A stretch of 63,873 nt of DNA, the filler included, from Collodictyon triciliatum (taxonomy: Eukaryota): the NCBI GenBank assembly GCA_043381765.1. It is 8 parts of 8 records of this genome, joined end to end, with 100 filler letters (N's around TTAATTAATTAA, not from the genome) between each part and the next. Parts side by side here need not be neighbours in the genome. Positions count along the whole stretch, not along the records: positions 9,383 to 18,663 come from JBHJMP010003089.1; 7 more parts are not named here. One strand, 5' to 3'. A model generated the notes under the pieces. The model ran no database searches. It was not told the DNA's origin and worked only from the letters and a program-made list of their open reading frames with translations. Numbering within the stretch: the first letter of the stretch is position 1; every line of letters starts with the position of its first letter. The translations under genes were made by a program, and so were the position numbers. This document shows positions 10,099-17,546 of the stretch, one piece after another.

Positions 10099-13000
10099 TT
10101 AATTGGACGATTTGTATTTTCCATTTTTCAGCCATATGACTTTACGGGATTTCTCTGTTGTGTTTGCCCAGAGACTAAATATCTCCCTGTTTTGTGCTCT
10201 GTCAACCAACTCGTTCCATGCATCTTCAAAATCTTTGCTAACGCCCCAGATTCTGGTGTAATCTTCGTCAGTGGCACCCTTTCCTTTGTCCAAGGATTCT
10301 AGTCGCTCCAACATAGCAAGCAATTCAGTTACGGAGGGGCGGGATTGTGGTGTTTCAAGCCAACAGCTTCGGATCATGTCGAAGACGAAAGAATTATTAT
10401 CAAAAGGAATCGGTAGCCTATGACCCTCCAATAGATTGCTAGATATTTGATTCTCGAGTGGAAACCCTGCGAAAGGCTCCTTTCTTGTCCGCATCGCCCA
10501 AAGTAGATTTCCAAACATAAAAACATCTGCGGCAAATGCGTTTCCTATCTTTCCGTCGAAGTGTTCTGGACCAACCCACTTGTAAGCCCCCTTGGCGATG
10601 AATGCCGGTCGTGTCGAGCCTGCATTTTGCATTAGAGATAATCCAACGTCCTTCAGTTTGGCAATACCTTGACAGATTAAAATATTCTGAAAGGTTAGGT
10701 TTTGATGTGACATGTATTTCGAGTGGATGTGTTCTATTCCACGCAGTATTCCATTCGCATATCTTACAGCTCGTGTATATGCTTCTTTGTTGCTTAACAC
10801 GGGCCACTTTCTATTGATTTCATCTTCCAAGGTAAGGTCACCTAGTTCTATTATCAAGCACATATGTTGGTATGTTCCGTTAATTTGGGATAGAAGGACG
10901 GTATCCATGAGTTGAATAATATGGGGATGGGGTCCAATCGTTGTTAACATCTTGTGTCTCCTCTCCCTCTCCGCTCCATATGTATGTGTAGTGCTAACGA
11001 ATTCTCCGTTGCAGATGTCAGGTACTTTAGGAATCTTAATTGCACGCTTGGAGGAATTATACATAATTTTAAGGACTATGTTATGATCACCATTGCCGAC
11101 AATCATGGAATCATGTAAAGATTTTGTGTCAAATTGCAGTCCATTAGTTGTATTGGGCGAGGCTAGTTTAATCTTAGATAAACAATTATCAACTAGGTCG
11201 CGAATGTCACCCTATAATACACAAGTCTTAATTATGCTTAACGAAGTTGAAGAAACCTTTGCTACTGAACGTGTATGCTATTTAAGTATCACATAAATAT
11301 GTGAGGCTATAGTCAGATGGTATTACCGATGGCTCTCTATGTAACTTCAGTGTTTTGAGTATATTTTCTATTGTTGTTCCTCCATATTCTGCTCTGTTCC
11401 TCCAGCAAGGCAGGTCGGCTATTCCTTCGTGCGCTCTTTTGACAGAAACATAACCTCTCTCATCTTGCAAATATAAGTACTCTAGCTTCATCAAACATGA
11501 TATACCAGAGGGTAGCTCACGTATCTTAGGCAGATAAAGGTTGTATTAGGTTGGATGGGTAATAGAATTGTAAATTTAAAAGCTTGTAGAAATTCGCTTT
11601 CTCCTAATTTGATACCAAAAGAAAAAGCGGAGGTGGTAGAATTTTACTCACAGGGTTTGCAGAAACATCGAAATTGCAGAGAAGAATTAAACAGGAGATG
11701 CCATCAGTGATTGAAGATATATTATTTTGGTCAATACGAAGAGACAATAAATTCGTGAGTCGGGATATTCCCTCAGGAAACGATGAAATCCTGTTCTTGA
11801 AAAAAGATAAATATGTTAGCTTTGTCAGGCTAGATATTCCGTCAGGGATGGTCGATATCATGTTATCACCCAAACACAGGTAGGCCAAGTTGGCCATTTT
11901 AAACAAGCCATTGGGCACTTTCTCAATGTCGTTATCAGTAAGCATCAAGGACTCAAGCTTAAGTAGAAAGGATATTAAACGTGGTATGGCACTTATGTGA
12001 TTATTTCTCAGGTCTAAAGTAGATAGGTTCGTAAGTTTCGAAACTCCAGAGGGAACAGCCTCAAGTCTCCTGTTCACTATTTCTATGTGCATGCATGGCA
12101 ACAAGAATTTTCCTTTAGGTGTCCAAGATGCGCCAGTCCTCTTTATTTCAGTGAGTTCTTCGTCATCTCGTTCTAAATGAAATATATCCATTAAGTCAAT
12201 TAAGCGTACAAAAGTAAATTCATACCTGCGACCATGGTCATATTCGGTTAGAATTAAATTCTCATAATTGTAACTTACCCAGAAGGGTTAAGCGAGCTTC
12301 TTCAACCTAGTGGTGGGAGTAGTTTAAATTTGACGATTTAATGTGCTAATATATTATTACTCCTTTAAATTTGTGCCACATGAGGAGTTTTAGAGCATGA
12401 GTTAATAATACATATTATTGTGCTATATTAAATATACGGCGTCATAAAGCGTAAGATGCCGAAGTGCATCGCCTATTGTGATTCCTCCGAATATCTCCCT
12501 ACTCCTCCAACAAGGCAAGTGAGAGATCCCTTCAGGAGCTCTTTCGACAGAGATGGCTCCACTTTCGTCTTGAATGTAGAAATTTTCCAGCTCCTTCAAG
12601 CATGATATACCCGGAGGTAGTTCTTGTATCTATGTTTGTTGCAATACTTAGTTTTCTTGATATTTGATTTTCATTTAAAAAAGAATTATGAAAATATGAT
12701 ACTGAGTTCCGAAGAATTCTCGTGGATGACACTTACTGGGTTAGACATTATACAAAAAGTTGCTAATTTCTTCAGACATGATATTCCATTTGGTATTGAT
12801 GATATATTATTTCCGTCAATTCGAAGAGTGACAATATTCGACAGCATTGATATTCCGTCAGGCAAAGAGGATATTCGATTGTTGAATAAACCAAGACTAT
12901 TTAGGGCTGTCATGCAAGATATTTCATCGGGAACTGATGATATATGGTTTCCATCCACCCGAAGGGAAATTACATTCGTTAAATGGGATATTGCAGTGGG

Positions 13001-15526: not shown

Positions 15527-17546
15527 TTACGACTGCTTCCATTCAGGAATTTGATTGATAGAGGCCATTGCGTCAGATATCGATATTTCAAAAACATTAG
15601 GAAGCCCGTGCATGAATAAAACTTCCCCTGCCTGACCTAGTTCGTCAGTTTCAGAATCTTTTTCAGCTTTGCGTTCTTCGGCTTTACGTGTTTCCTCGGC
15701 TTTGCGTGCTTCTCCGGCTCTTCGTACTTCTTCGGCTTTGCGAGCGGCTTCTGCCTTTATACGCGCTCCTTCGGCTCTCCGTGCTTCTTCAGCTTTGCGT
15801 GCTTCCTCGGCTCTACGTACTTCTTCGGCTCTGCGAGCGGCTTCTGCTTTTATACGTGCTTCTTCGGCTCTACGTATTTCTTCGGCTCTGCGAGCTTCCT
15901 CGGCTTTGCGTGCTTCTTCGGCTTTGCGAACGGCTTCCGCCTTTATACGCGCCTCTTCGGCTCTGCGTGCTTCTTCGGCTCTGCGTGCTTCTTCGGCTCT
16001 GCGTGCTTCTTCGGCTCTGCGTGCTTCTTCGGCTCTACGTGCTTCTTCGGCTTTGCGTGCTTCTTCGGCTTTGCGTGCTTCTTCGGCTCTACGTGCTTCT
16101 TCGGCTTTGCGTGCTTCTTCGGCTCTGCGAGCGGCTTCTGCTTTTATACGTGCTTCTTCGGCTCTGCGTGCTTCTTCAGCTTTGCGTGCTTCCTCGGCTC
16201 TACGTTCTTCTTCGGCTCTGCGAGCGGCTTCTGCTTTTATACGTGCTTCTTCGGCTCTACGTATTTCTTCGGCTTTGCGAACGGCTTCCGCCTTTATACG
16301 CGCCTCTTCGGCTCTCCGTGCTTCTTCGGCTTTGCGAGCGGCTTCTGCCTTTACACGCGCTTCTATGACTCTTCGTTCTTCTTCGGCTCTGCGAGCGGCT
16401 TCTGCTTTTATACGTGCTTCTTCGGCTCTACGTTCTTCTTCGGCTTTGCGAACGGCTTCCGCCTTTATACGCGCCTCTTCGGCTCTGCGTGCTTCTTCGG
16501 CTTTGCGAGCGGCTTCTGCCTTTATACGCGCCTCTTCGGCTTTGCGTGCTTCTTCGGCTTTGCGAGCGGCTTCTGCCTTTATGCGCGCTTCTTCTGCCTT
16601 TACACGCGCTTCTTCGGCTCTACGTTCTTCTTCGGCTCTGCGAGCGGCTTCTGCTTTTATACGTGCTTCTTCGGCTTTGCGTGCTTCTTCGGCTTTGCGA
16701 ACGGCTTCCGCCTTTATACGCGCCTCTTCGGCTCTCCGTGCTTCTTCGGCTTTGCGAGCGGCTTCCGCCTTTACACGCGCTTCTTCGGCTCTACGTGCTT
16801 CTTCGGCTCTACGTGCTTCTTCGGCTCTGCGCGCCTCTTCAGCTTTGCGTTCTTCCTCGACTTTAAGGCGAGCTTCTGTTGCGGCGTCAATCTAGTGCTA
16901 TAAGTTAGTTACCTAAAAGACGTGTGACACATTTCCCAAACCTACTGGGTCGTACAGCTGCAAGGAACGAAGATATTTGTTGTCACTGTAGCGCTCACTC
17001 CAACAGGGAAGAGCTGTGACGCCACGGGGTGCCCTCTTGATAATGACTGACCCTCCTGACTCGAGGTAGAGACGTCTCAAATTGCTAAGAGAAGAAATGT
17101 GTTGCGAGAGTGTCTCCATCTGCATCAAGGATGAAACATAATTTTTTTTTGAGTTTTGGCCTCCCAGTACTCGAGAGAATGGTGGGTTAAACAAGATCAA
17201 CAGGCTATTCATTTGTTGAAATAAAAAGCCAAACCGGATTATCGTAAACCCAGAGAATCTCTAAGTCAGCCAAGCTTGAAATTTGCAGTGGTAGAGACGA
17301 GAGCCTGTTCTGGTTCAGATTCAGATATGTCAATCCCTTTAGGCGGGATATTACAGGCGGAAGAGAAGACAGCTTATTGTCATTTAGGTACAGCTCCATC
17401 AAACGCGTCAGTATAAATACGCCCGGCGGTATTGACGTGAGGCCTTGATTACCCAGACCCAGGTCGGTGCGATTACGAAGAACGGAGATGTTGACGTCTC
17501 CAGTGATTTTCCGCAAGTCTTCGAGAAGCCTGGCTTCGTCAGACAT
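15527..17546 (-). CDS. LRR + cap module + about 400-aa (RRAEEA/RIKAEAA)n charged helical rod (gene A), at least 3 exons
   Basis: Exons 17546-17235 (MSDEARLL...LRRs...VYDNP), 17119-16946 (METLSQHISSL...KRAPRGVTALPCW...LYDP) and 16891-15527 (IDAATEARLKVEEERKAEEARR...EWKQS*), joined by phase-0 GT-AG introns. The third exon is missing from the ORF track because it has no early start codon. Confidence 0.8.
15665..16860 (-). repeat. Coding 18/21-nt minisatellite encoding AEEARR/KAEAAR repeats
   Basis: About 1.2 kb of GCTTCTTCGGCT-based units, open on the minus strand. Confidence 0.92.

What the first reader, a model, noticed from the sequence alone, without database searches (positions are those of the whole stretch)
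10099..17546. Modular LRR cluster built from a shared exon-encoded cap, charged-helix rods and a pseudokinase (candidate intracellular sensor system)
Seen: two tandem minus-strand genes hold three LRR blocks. Each block ends in xNP, is cut by a phase-0 intron at exactly that point, and is followed by a separate phase-0/0 exon with the same motif, which I do not recognise. A (17119-16946): LRRLYLESGGSVIIKRAPRGVTALPCW...LQLYDP. B1 (12629-12438): LENFYIQDESGAISVERAPEGISHLPCW...LTLYDA. B2 (11524-11327): LEYLYLQDERGYVSVKRAHEGIADLPCW...LKLH. The parts are reshuffled: A = LRR-cap-rod, B = rod-LRR-cap-LRR-cap-pseudokinase. No signal peptide or TM helix is visible, and a LINE RT relic lies directly upstream. 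Established: shuffled intracellular LRR arrays paired with pseudokinases occur in innate immunity (plant ZAR1-RKS1/ZRK; MLKL as a pseudokinase effector). Inference: a lineage-specific, fast-evolving recognition/signalling family. The immune role is speculation.
Basis: partly seen in the sequence, partly recalled or inferred. Interest (0 to 1): 0.78.

Follow-up and report, generated by a model that had tools for sequence, protein, structure and literature searches.

The report
Capped LRR genes with rods, pseudokinase
Two neighbouring, expressed protist genes are built from a self-capped leucine-rich-repeat binding module, otherwise seen only in the flagellate Diphylleia, joined to long charged helices and to a kinase domain that has lost its catalytic residue; they are an undescribed variant of a familiar kind of cytosolic scaffold protein.

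Summary
Two tandem minus-strand genes (A 616 aa, B 1177 aa) carry three LRR blocks. Each block ends in NP at a phase-0 GT..AG intron and is followed by a 58-66-codon phase-0/0 exon with RAxxGxxxLPCW. RNA contigs from four runs show 7 of the 8 predicted splice joints; the LRR1-to-cap1 joint was not covered.

The "cap" is not a free-standing element. It is the second half of the last regular repeat, one irregular repeat, a helix and a closing strand. It is therefore the C-terminal end of a complete LRR domain that also has its own N-cap (AF2 of a homologous module, pLDDT 97.1).

It matches no Pfam family and no PDB sequence. A search of 1.84 billion proteins found it in 31 of the 150 best hits. 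Of these, 21 are Diphylleia rotans transcripts and 8 are exon-sized ORFs on unnamed short contigs.

Gene B's kinase has HRD changed to HQN but evolves under constraint (pN/pS about 0.28).

Best reading: cytosolic scaffold or adaptor proteins of a lineage-specific family. An immune role is untested.

The parts
17235..17546 (-). Gene A exon 1 (104 codons): start ATG, N-cap, three 23-residue LRRs and the first half of the fourth. Ends ..WVYDNP at a phase-0 GT intron.
   Evidence: Pfam LRR_8 at E 1.7e-17. Frame and splice sites. Joint 17119|17235 seen in RNA contigs of 3 runs.
16946..17119 (-). Gene A cap exon (58 codons, phase 0/0): second half of LRR4, the irregular last repeat ..IIKRAPRGVTALPCW, and the closing ..LRSLQLYDP.
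   Evidence: Alignment A1. Both flanking joints are in RNA contigs. No Pfam hit at E<0.1.
15527..16891 (-). Gene A exon 3: a helical rod of about 410 residues, A/E/R/K-rich with an 18-nt (6-residue) period (AEEARR/AEEARIKAEAARK), then a 45-residue tail and the stop codon.
   Evidence: TRF finds period 18, 63 copies. Composition A 31%, E 29%, R 23%, K 9%, hydrophobic 6.8%. An RNA contig runs 125 nt past the stop.
13408..14299 (-). Gene B exon 1: about 120 N-terminal residues of no known family, then a rod of about 176 residues (AEIARQ/AEEARR). Ends in phase 1.
   Evidence: Joint 13326|13408 is in a 100%-identical metatranscriptome contig. No real Pfam family.
12737..13326 (-). Gene B exon 2: N-cap (SELKELRPHWEPHKHG) and LRR block 1, with seven repeats plus the first half of the eighth. 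Ends ..IMSNP|GT.
   Evidence: Pfam LRR_8 at E 7e-21. The N-cap aligns with D. rotans modules. The 3' splice joint is not covered by RNA.
12438..12629 (-). Gene B cap exon 1 (64 codons, phase 0/0): IQELPPGISCLKELENFYIQDESGAISVERAPEGISHLPCW...LTLYDA.
   Evidence: The 3' joint to the micro-exon is in an RNA contig. 58% identical to cap2 and 39% to the gene A cap.
12279..12306 (-). Gene B micro-exon (28 nt, VEEARLTLL, phases 0 to 1). Looks like the stump of a rod; compare ..TEARLKVEEE.. just after the cap of gene A.
   Evidence: Both joints (12304/6|12436/8 and 12172|12279) lie in one RNA contig that also holds LRR2 and the start of cap2. Homology to a rod is inferred from the sequence only.
11652..12172 (-). 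Gene B exon 5: N-cap (ELTEIKRTGASWTPKGK) and LRR block 2, with six repeats plus the first half of the seventh. Ends ..VSANP|GT.
   Evidence: Pfam LRR_4 at E 5e-21. 42% identical to block 1 over 171 residues. Joints in RNA.
11327..11524 (-). Gene B cap exon 2 (66 codons, phase 0/0): IRELPSGISCLMKLEYLYLQDERGYVSVKRAHEGIADLPCW...LKLHREPS.
   Evidence: Both flanking joints are in RNA contigs.
10099..11211 (-). Gene B exon 7: protein-kinase domain with HRD changed to HQN, DFG to DVG, Gly-loop GNGDHN and the VAIK lysine kept, followed by a tail of about 65 residues and the stop codon.
   Evidence: Pfam PK_Tyr_Ser-Thr at E 6e-25. Alignment with four D. rotans kinases that keep HRDLK and DFG. 13 synonymous and 13 non-synonymous differences against a related transcript, pN/pS 0.28.

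Best explanation
These are two separate, expressed, cytosolic genes of an LRR family so far seen only here and in Diphylleia rotans.

The recurring unit is a complete, self-capped LRR domain. It has an N-cap helix and strand (L..L+P..EP.G), four to eight 23-residue repeats, and a family-specific C-cap. The C-cap is an irregular last repeat (..G...V.RAP.GI..LPCW), a helix, and a closing strand (L..L.LY). Its intron position and phase are the same in all three copies.

Gene B arose by internal duplication of a [rod stump / LRR exon / cap exon] unit (inferred).

The LRR domains are most likely protein-binding heads (inferred from the fold). In gene A the head sits on a charged, Ala/Glu/Arg-rich helix about 60 nm long, of ER/K type, which ends in a short tail. 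In gene B two heads lie between a shorter rod and a kinase domain that cannot use the canonical catalytic base.

Gene B therefore most likely works as a scaffold or allosteric adaptor rather than as an enzyme (inferred). Its role would be signalling or assembly of complexes, in the manner of SHOC2, Rsu1 or LRRK-type cytosolic LRR proteins.
For: Shown:
- Gene models are open, and all 8 introns are GT..AG.
- 7 of the 8 joints are present in RNA contigs, two of them in 100%-identical freshwater metatranscriptome contigs.
- Pfam places LRR_8/LRR_4 on the three LRR exons and PK_Tyr_Ser-Thr on the last exon.
- The cap-only profile marks 31 of the 150 best hits from a search of 1.84 billion proteins.
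- All 20 long cap proteins that I looked up are D. rotans.
- N-cap and C-cap align across the window and D. rotans modules.
- The AF2 model of the 168-residue module P0027 has pLDDT 97.1 and pTM 0.91, with the expected solenoid plus caps.
- The best structural matches are the C-terminal ends of cytosolic LRR domains: LRRC8A 630-797 (Z 16.0), SHOC2 396-577 (Z 15.3) and LRRK2 1167-1327 (Z 14.1).
- HRD is HQN, while four D. rotans homologues keep HRDLK and DFG.
- pN/pS is 0.28 over 278 codons.
- Rod A is 92% A/E/R/K and 6.8% hydrophobic, with a 6-residue period.
- There is no transmembrane-like segment.
- One D. rotans paralogue (P0062/P0167) also joins a long coiled coil to an LRR-cap.
Against: - No binding partner, localisation or phenotype is known, so the function rests on analogy.
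- The LRR1-to-cap1 joint was not covered by RNA.
- X1 and X3 are only guessed to be RNA runs, although the spliced forms they hold argue that they are.
- The structure is that of a D. rotans homologue, not of the window's own spliced protein.
- The kinase model is poor (mean pLDDT 56.5), so nucleotide binding cannot be judged. Kinases with an Asn in place of the HRD Asp can retain weak activity (recalled for HER3).
- pN/pS uses only the 26 differences that the tool listed; 42 further rows were not shown.
- Paralogues fused to Roc-COR-DUF4062-AAA_16, RING-NHL and a NYN RNase fit an immune-type repertoire at least as well as plain signalling.
Confidence: 0.55

Rival explanations
1. One reading: the capped LRR modules are variable recognition domains of an innate-immune-like repertoire. 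Gene B would be a sensor or decoy that signals through its pseudokinase, and gene A a related adaptor.
For: - The family is multi-copy and divergent: paralogues are mostly below 50% identical, and there are 20 Trinity genes in D. rotans plus 8 further exon-sized ORFs.
- D. rotans members fuse the same module, up to six caps per protein, to Roc-COR-DUF4062-AAA_16, to RING-NHL and to a Zc3h12a-like NYN RNase.
- DUF4062 is reported as a TIR-like NADase family that sits beside NACHT ATPases (passages read in preprint 10.64898/2026.05.01.722283).
Against: - Neither window gene has an NTPase, a TIR-like domain, or any other death or effector domain.
- The one selection estimate shows constraint rather than diversification (pN/pS 0.28, kinase exon only).
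- No data on induction by infection or prey exist.
- The same partner domains also occur in ordinary signalling proteins.
Confidence: 0.18
2. The proteins are structural linkers of the cytoskeleton or flagellar apparatus. An LRR head docks on a fixed partner and the long rods set distances or bundle, as in LRR-plus-coiled-coil centrosome and cilium proteins (LRRC45 and LRRCC1, recalled).
For: - The rods are about 410 and 176 residues long.
- D. rotans P0062/P0167 is a heptad coiled coil of 700-1000 residues ending in an LRR-cap.
- Axonemal LRR proteins appear among the structural matches, e.g. 8glv, 9ijj and 9fqr.
Against: - The pseudokinase and the kinase, ROCO and RNase paralogues point to signalling.
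- Low-complexity hexapeptide rods are unlike the heptad coiled coils of known linkers.
- The structural matches to axonemal LRRs are no better than generic LRR matches.
Confidence: 0.15
3. Gene B is still an active, atypical LRR-kinase rather than a pseudokinase.
For: - The VAIK lysine, the DxG aspartate and the HxN..N asparagine are retained.
- Purifying selection is strongest in the C-lobe: 10 synonymous against 2 non-synonymous differences in codons 160-310.
Against: - The catalytic Asp is Asn.
- The Lys of HRDLK is Thr.
- The Gly-rich loop is GNGDHN.
- DFG is DVG, while all four aligned D. rotans homologues keep the canonical motifs.
Confidence: 0.1
4. The genes are decaying duplicates, or artefacts of the gene models.
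For: - A reverse-transcriptase relic lies nearby.
- The window has assembly gaps.
- Both rods are low-complexity repeats.
Against: - The reading frames of 616 and 1177 codons are open.
- Spliced RNA is found in four runs.
- pN/pS is 0.28.
Confidence: 0.02

Closest known systems
Cytosolic 23-24-residue LRR domains of SHOC2, LRRC8A/C and LRRK2 (C-terminal ends)
   Same: Same solenoid fold and repeat length, and the same cytosolic setting. The modelled module, including its C-cap, superposes on the last repeats of LRRC8A (Z 16.0, rmsd 3.4, 144 aligned), SHOC2 396-577 (Z 15.3) and LRRK2 1167-1327 (Z 14.1).
   Different: The cap sequence (RAP.GI..LPCW ... L..L.LY) has no detectable sequence relative in the PDB or Pfam. 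The domains here are short (4-8 repeats), carry both an N-cap and a C-cap, and are strung in tandem, two in gene B and up to six in D. rotans P0003. The Z-scores stand only 1-2 units above generic LRR matches.
ROCO / LRRK-type LRR kinases
   Same: LRR and kinase sit in one cytosolic chain. D. rotans paralogues with the same cap carry Roc and COR-A.
   Different: No Roc or COR is present in either window gene. The kinase lacks the catalytic Asp.
Pseudokinases with an altered HRD motif (HER3 and ILK, recalled)
   Same: The HRD Asp is replaced, while the beta-3 Lys and the DFG Asp are kept. The PDB sequence hit with the lowest whole-sequence E-value is an EGFR entry (E 2.4e-23), though it matched as two stretches of 41.9 bits each, below the single-stretch FGFR hits at about 66 bits.
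   Different: The domain context is different. No evidence was sought or found for orthology, and activity has not been tested.
Plant ZAR1-RKS1/ZRK (NLR plus pseudokinase) and MLKL
   Different: There is no NB-ARC or other STAND NTPase, no coiled-coil or four-helix-bundle executioner domain, and the LRR and pseudokinase are in cis. The resemblance is conceptual only.
ER/K single alpha-helix (SAH) linkers (myosin VI/X and caldesmon, recalled)
   Same: Rod A is 61% E+R+K, has 130 oppositely charged i/i+4 pairs in 410 residues, and is only 6.8% hydrophobic.
   Different: Rod A is 31% alanine, uses Arg rather than Lys, and has a strict 6-residue DNA-level repeat. Rod B is richer in Ile/Val (17% hydrophobic) and may behave differently. 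Neither has been tested physically.
LRR C-terminal caps in Pfam/SMART (LRRCT; SDS22/U2A'-type LRRcap within LRR_9)
   Same: They do the same job: closing the hydrophobic core at the C-terminal end of the solenoid.
   Different: None of the three cap exons gave a Pfam hit at E<0.1. LRR_9 scored below its cut-off and only on the repeat exons.

Membership tests
Leucine-rich repeat domain (Pfam LRR_8 / LRR_4) | Tandem LxxLxLxxNxL repeats recognised by the family profiles above their cut-off | tested here: met
   LRR_8 scored 63.4, 74.2 and 65.4 bits (cut-off 27) on the three LRR exons.
Diphylleia-type capped LRR module (defined in this report) | C-cap motif ..G...V.RAP.GI..LPCW followed by ..L..L.LY | tested here: met
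   All three window caps carry it. It is shared with 31 of the 150 best library hits.
Diphylleia-type capped LRR module (defined in this report) | N-cap L..L+P..EP.G before the first repeat | tested here: met
   Present in gene B block 1 and, in weaker form, in block 2. Gene A has a shorter variant. It aligns with P0027, P0088, P0017, P0054 and P0030.
Known LRR C-caps (LRRCT; SDS22/U2A' LRRcap within LRR_9) | Sequence match of the cap region to the family profile | tested here: not met
   No Pfam family matched any of the three cap exons at E<0.1. The cap profile found nothing in the PDB at E<=10.
Known LRR C-caps (structural) | The cap fold superposes on a solved cap | tested here: inconclusive
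   The whole module aligns to the C-terminal ends of LRRC8A, SHOC2 and LRRK2 at Z 14-16, but generic LRRs score 13.5-15. The cap was not searched on its own.
Protein kinase superfamily | Kinase-domain profile match | tested here: met
   PK_Tyr_Ser-Thr at 88.4 bits and Pkinase at 76.3 bits.
Catalytically competent protein kinase | HRD catalytic Asp | tested here: not met
   HQNLTFQN aligns with HRDLKPEN of four homologues.
Catalytically competent protein kinase | Beta-3 Lys (VAIK) and DFG Asp | tested here: met
   RAIK and DVG are aligned and invariant (K59, D188).
Catalytically competent protein kinase | GxGxxG glycine-rich loop | tested here: not met
   GNGDHN lacks the third glycine.
ROCO proteins | Roc GTPase and COR domains next to the LRR | tested here: not met
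   None on any exon of gene A or B. They are present in the D. rotans paralogues P0003, P0022, P0030 and P0040.
NLR / STAND immune receptors (including ZAR1-like) | NB-ARC, NACHT or another STAND NTPase joined to the LRR | tested here: not met
   No NTPase domain in either window gene. AAA_16 occurs only in the D. rotans paralogues P0022 and P0030.
ER/K single alpha-helix | Stable monomeric helix from i/i+4 Glu-Arg/Lys pairs | not testable with these tools
   The composition fits for rod A. Monomeric helicity needs CD, SAXS or AUC.

The most novel reading that the evidence does not exclude
The self-capped LRR module is the shared sensor domain of a Diphyllatea-specific innate-immune-like repertoire. 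Arrays of capped LRR 'beads' would be wired to ROCO-TIR-like(DUF4062)-STAND, TRIM-like RING-NHL, NYN RNase and kinase outputs. The window's tandem pair would be a sensor/adaptor couple in which the pseudokinase is the switch or a decoy. That would be an independent invention of LRR-based immunity in a lineage near the base of Amorphea.
Probability: 0.15. Interest if true: 0.75.

Novelty: new variant of a known kind. Interest (0 to 1): 0.45.

Why it matters
LRR domains are among the most reused recognition modules in eukaryotes, yet almost nothing is known about them in CRuMs, a deep branch beside Amorphea.

This report defines a sequence family with a clear signature: an N-cap, a C-cap (RAP.GI..LPCW) and a conserved phase-0 intron. 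The family is absent from Pfam and from the sequences of solved structures. In Diphylleia it is combined with ROCO, STAND/TIR-like, TRIM-like, RNase and kinase domains.

The profile gives a handle for taking a census of this repertoire in new Diphyllatea genomes, and for asking whether LRR-based sensing evolved there independently. The window pair adds two further architectures: an LRR on an ER/K-type rod, and two LRR domains with a conserved pseudokinase.

If the family is only ordinary signalling scaffolds, the result is a useful annotation and nothing more.

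Tried and rejected
Searches that gave nothing useful:
- No whole genome is held for this window, so no copy-number census was possible.
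- The word-index search with the 3-cap profile found nothing.
- The kinase exon against longer proteins gave one weak plant hit only.
Only 7997 candidates were scored, so this is weak evidence.
- Earlier-findings look-ups returned nothing.
- Rfam found no match in 9000-20000.
- The ESM Atlas search with the cap part of P0027 returned only generic LRR clusters at about 0.9, which is chance level.
- The cap profile against PDB sequences found nothing at E<=10.
- Local searches of gene B's N-terminal 125 residues, its C-terminal tail and gene A's tail against the stored proteins found nothing.
- Literature: 0 papers hold both 'Diphylleia rotans' and 'leucine-rich repeat'. The Collodictyon/genome/kinase search and the CRuMs search listed nothing on this family; I read listings only. 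These libraries omit most subscription journals.

Results too weak to use:
- The AF2 model of the kinase exon with a 5-row alignment was poor (mean pLDDT 56.5, N-lobe below 50), so no fold search was run on it.
- RNA cover was absent at 12570-12826 and 13855-14368 in the four runs laid. This says nothing about expression there.

Ideas considered and rejected:
- The cap as an independently shuffled exon. It always completes an LRR domain.
- A and B as one gene. Gene A has a stop, a contig running 125 nt past that stop, and a 1.2-kb spacer before gene B.
- Secreted or membrane proteins.

Not used: complex prediction, because no binding claim is made.

Technical note: the tool rendered the first codon (TTG) of window:11327-11470 as M.

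Full report
**Anatomy**

I read the minus strand of 9500-18500 and translated it in three frames. This shows two head-to-tail genes.

Gene A has three exons:
- 17546-17235
- 17119-16946
- 16891-15530, with the stop at 15529-15527

Gene A encodes 616 residues.

Gene B has seven exons:
- 14299-13408
- 13326-12737
- 12629-12438
- 12306-12279
- 12172-11652
- 11524-11327
- 11211-10102, with the stop at 10101-10099

Gene B encodes 1177 residues.

All eight introns start with GT and end with AG. They are 54-131 nt long, and neither spliced frame has an internal stop. Pfam places LRR_8/LRR_4 on the three LRR exons and PK_Tyr_Ser-Thr (E 6e-25) on the last exon of gene B. It finds nothing on the three cap exons at E<0.1.

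**Check of the observation**

Each LRR exon ends ..NP and is cut there by a phase-0 intron: YDNP|GT, MSNP|GT and SANP|GT. Each is followed by a phase-0/0 exon of 58, 64 or 66 codons. The three exons share 18 invariant columns of 64, including RA..G...LPCW.

Four public RNA runs were laid on 10000-17700. Their contigs carry joints with CT..AC ends on the plus strand (GT..AG on the gene strand) at seven of the eight predicted introns:
- 17119|17235, seen in three runs
- 16891|16946
- 13326|13408
- 12304|12436 (cut +2)
- 12172|12279
- 11524|11652
- 11210|11326 (cut +1)

Only the LRR1-to-cap1 intron (12736-12630) had no cover. Two runs are freshwater metatranscriptomes whose contigs match the window without a single difference. 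Two others are about 3% diverged and are only guessed to be RNA, but they hold spliced forms. One contig bridges cap1, the micro-exon, LRR2 and cap2. Another bridges cap2 and the kinase. A third bridges rod B and LRR1.

- Cap2 runs on to ..LKLHREPS.
- A 28-nt micro-exon (VEEARLTLL) lies between cap1 and LRR2.
- The introns that lead into both gene B LRR exons are phase 1.
- The RVT_1 fragment is on the opposite strand at 18376-18708.

**What the cap is**

The first 22 positions of the cap profile match ordinary repeats in the LRR exons. The cap exon therefore begins in the middle of a regular repeat (N-P | I-x-E-L-P).

A profile of the three caps was searched with HMMER against one representative of each 50% cluster of about 15 billion proteins. 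It gave 193 hits at E<=0.001. Of the 150 best listed, 31 carry the cap-specific part. The remaining 119 are generic LRR proteins that matched through the repeat-like start.

I looked up 30 of the listed proteins:
- 20 long cap proteins are all from the EukProt transcriptome of Diphylleia rotans.
- 8 short ones (68-121 aa) are ORFs on unnamed NCBI contigs of 523-734 bp. In six of them the cap starts within the first six residues, which suggests the same exon boundary in that genome.
- 2 non-cap hits were a plant NLR and a low-complexity ENA protein.

P0023 is a second isoform of one of the D. rotans genes. P0058 and P0084 were not looked up.

A deeper, cap-only profile of 23 rows found no further taxon. 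Its 14 hits were all the same Trinity set, from a capped candidate list. The same profile has no match among PDB sequences at E<=10.

The alignment of whole modules also shows a conserved N-cap, L..L+P..EP.G. In the window this is ELKELRPHWEPHKHG in gene B block 1.

**Structure**

The 168-residue D. rotans protein P0027 is one complete module. With a 25-row alignment that includes the window's exons, AlphaFold2 gave mean pLDDT 97.1 and pTM 0.91. The model has these elements:
- an N-terminal helix and strand
- five repeat strands at 23-residue spacing
- a short hairpin and strand in the irregular repeat (FEGSIQVKSAP)
- two short helices over GITSLPCW
- a helix (FAESLR) and a final strand (LDL)

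Foldseek and VIA-align return only LRR proteins. The top alignments cover the whole model and fall on the C-terminal ends of cytosolic LRR domains: LRRC8A 630-797 (Z 16.0, rmsd 3.4, 144 residues), SHOC2 396-577 (Z 15.3) and LRRK2 1167-1327 (Z 14.1). Generic LRRs score 13.5-15, so the margin is small.

I conclude that the cap is a family-specific sequence solution to an ordinary structural job: closing a cytosolic LRR solenoid. It is not a new fold and not an independent module. The model is of a homologue. The window's own spliced LRR-plus-cap could not be handed to the structure tool.

**Modularity and history (inferred)**

| Comparison | Identity |
|---|---|
| Gene B caps, cap1 vs cap2 | 58% |
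| Gene B LRR blocks, block 1 vs block 2 | 42% over 171 residues |
| Gene A cap vs cap1 / cap2 of gene B | 39% / 48% |
| Gene A LRR exon vs block 1 / block 2 of gene B | 37% / 39% |

In gene B the unit [0-to-1 exon ending in a rod-like sequence / 1-to-0 LRR exon / 0-to-0 cap exon] occurs twice. The second rod is reduced to the 28-nt micro-exon (VEEARLTLL). That sequence resembles the TEARLKVEEE that follows the cap of gene A.

This points to internal tandem duplication of a three-exon unit, and to an older split between genes A and B. The intron at NP|I predates both events.

**Rods**

Both rods are DNA-level repeats with an 18-nt period. Rod A is about 410 residues. It is 31% A, 29% E, 23% R and 9% K, with 6.8% hydrophobic residues and 130 oppositely charged i/i+4 pairs. 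This composition fits an ER/K-type single alpha-helix about 60 nm long.

Rod B is 176 residues (AEIARQ/AEIVRQ/AEEARR). It has 17% hydrophobic residues and may self-associate.

Neither property can be tested with the tools here.

**Kinase**

I aligned the domain with four D. rotans LRR-cap kinases that keep HRDLK..N and DFG. The window domain differs as follows:

| Motif | Window sequence | State |
|---|---|---|
| HRDLK..N | HQNLTFQN | Catalytic Asp is Asn; Lys is Thr |
| DFG | DVG | Asp kept |
| Gly-rich loop | GNGDHN | Third glycine lost |
| VAIK | RAIK | Lysine kept |

This is the classical signature of a pseudokinase. It does not prove inactivity.

Against one ~3%-diverged transcript, the 26 listed differences in the exon split into 13 synonymous and 13 non-synonymous. 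That gives pN/pS of 0.28 over 278 codons. In codons 160-310 the split is 10 synonymous to 2 non-synonymous. The domain is therefore maintained by selection. This figure is crude, because the tool listed only the best-supported differences.

An AF2 model of the exon from a 5-row alignment was too weak to use (mean pLDDT 56.5).

**Context of the family**

In D. rotans the same capped module occurs in several architectures:
- up to six times in one chain (P0003)
- with Roc + COR-A + DUF4062, with or without AAA_16 (P0003, P0022, P0030, P0040)
- with active-looking kinases that carry a C-terminal SAM-like region (P0007, P0013, P0088)
- with SH3 + kinase (P0024)
- with RING + NHL (P0015)
- with a Zc3h12a-like NYN RNase (P0054)
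- at the end of a long heptad coiled coil (P0062/P0167)

A 2026 preprint reports DUF4062 as a TIR-like NADase family that lies next to NACHT ATPases in human NWD1, NWD2, TEP1 and NPHP3 (passages read). These partners are compatible with an immune-type repertoire, but equally with general signalling. None of them is present in the two window genes.

**Verdict**

The finding is real and well described. Its core novelty is narrower than proposed: an undescribed, apparently Diphyllatea-restricted sequence family of self-capped cytosolic LRR domains, with a conserved exon structure. In the window it is combined with charged helical rods and a conserved pseudokinase.

The most likely function is protein binding and scaffolding in signalling (confidence 0.55). 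Immune sensing (0.18) and cytoskeletal linking (0.15) remain open.

The organism was not identified. The only named relatives are from a CRuMs flagellate, not an amoeba.

Noticed in passing
window 15140-15396 (spacer between genes A and B): Contig depth is about 270 and 225 in runs X1 and X3, against 5-57 over the genes, and there are several loose ends at 15233-15331. The stretch is unique in the window and has no Rfam match. It may be a dispersed repeat or a separate abundant RNA.
   Followed up: partly
window 18376-18708 (+): A reverse-transcriptase fragment (RVT_1, E 2e-14, covering 81 of 205 profile positions) lies on the strand opposite to the two genes. It is a retroelement relic about 830 nt upstream of gene A.
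   Followed up: yes
window 36524-39559 (-), 42403-43875 (+), 51813-52874 (+): Three long open frames sit in the same window: one with Talin_IBS2B and weak I/LWEQ matches, one with ankyrin repeats, and one with SibA-like Ig domains. Together they are adhesion-type genes. No link to the LRR genes is implied.
   Followed up: partly
D. rotans proteins P0022, P0003, P0030 (stored proteins, not in the window): These proteins have arrays of capped LRR modules followed by Roc, COR-A, DUF4062 and/or AAA_16 in one chain of about 1900-2200 residues. That is a ROCO protein fused to an NWD1-like TIR-like/STAND cassette.
   Followed up: partly
window 17547-17580: An RNA contig continues 34 nt upstream of the gene A ATG and then carries 21 letters that do not match the window. 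This may be a further 5' exon, a leader sequence or strain divergence.
   Followed up: no
window 2922-3191 and 4575-5033 (+): Open frames that look by eye like pieces of a USP7-type ubiquitin hydrolase. The motif is recalled and was not searched.
   Followed up: no
window 20.5-21.2 kb, 28.0 kb, 32.5 kb, 51.2 kb, 60.6-62.2 kb: There are runs of N (assembly gaps) and many simple-sequence repeats. The window comes from a draft assembly.
   Followed up: no
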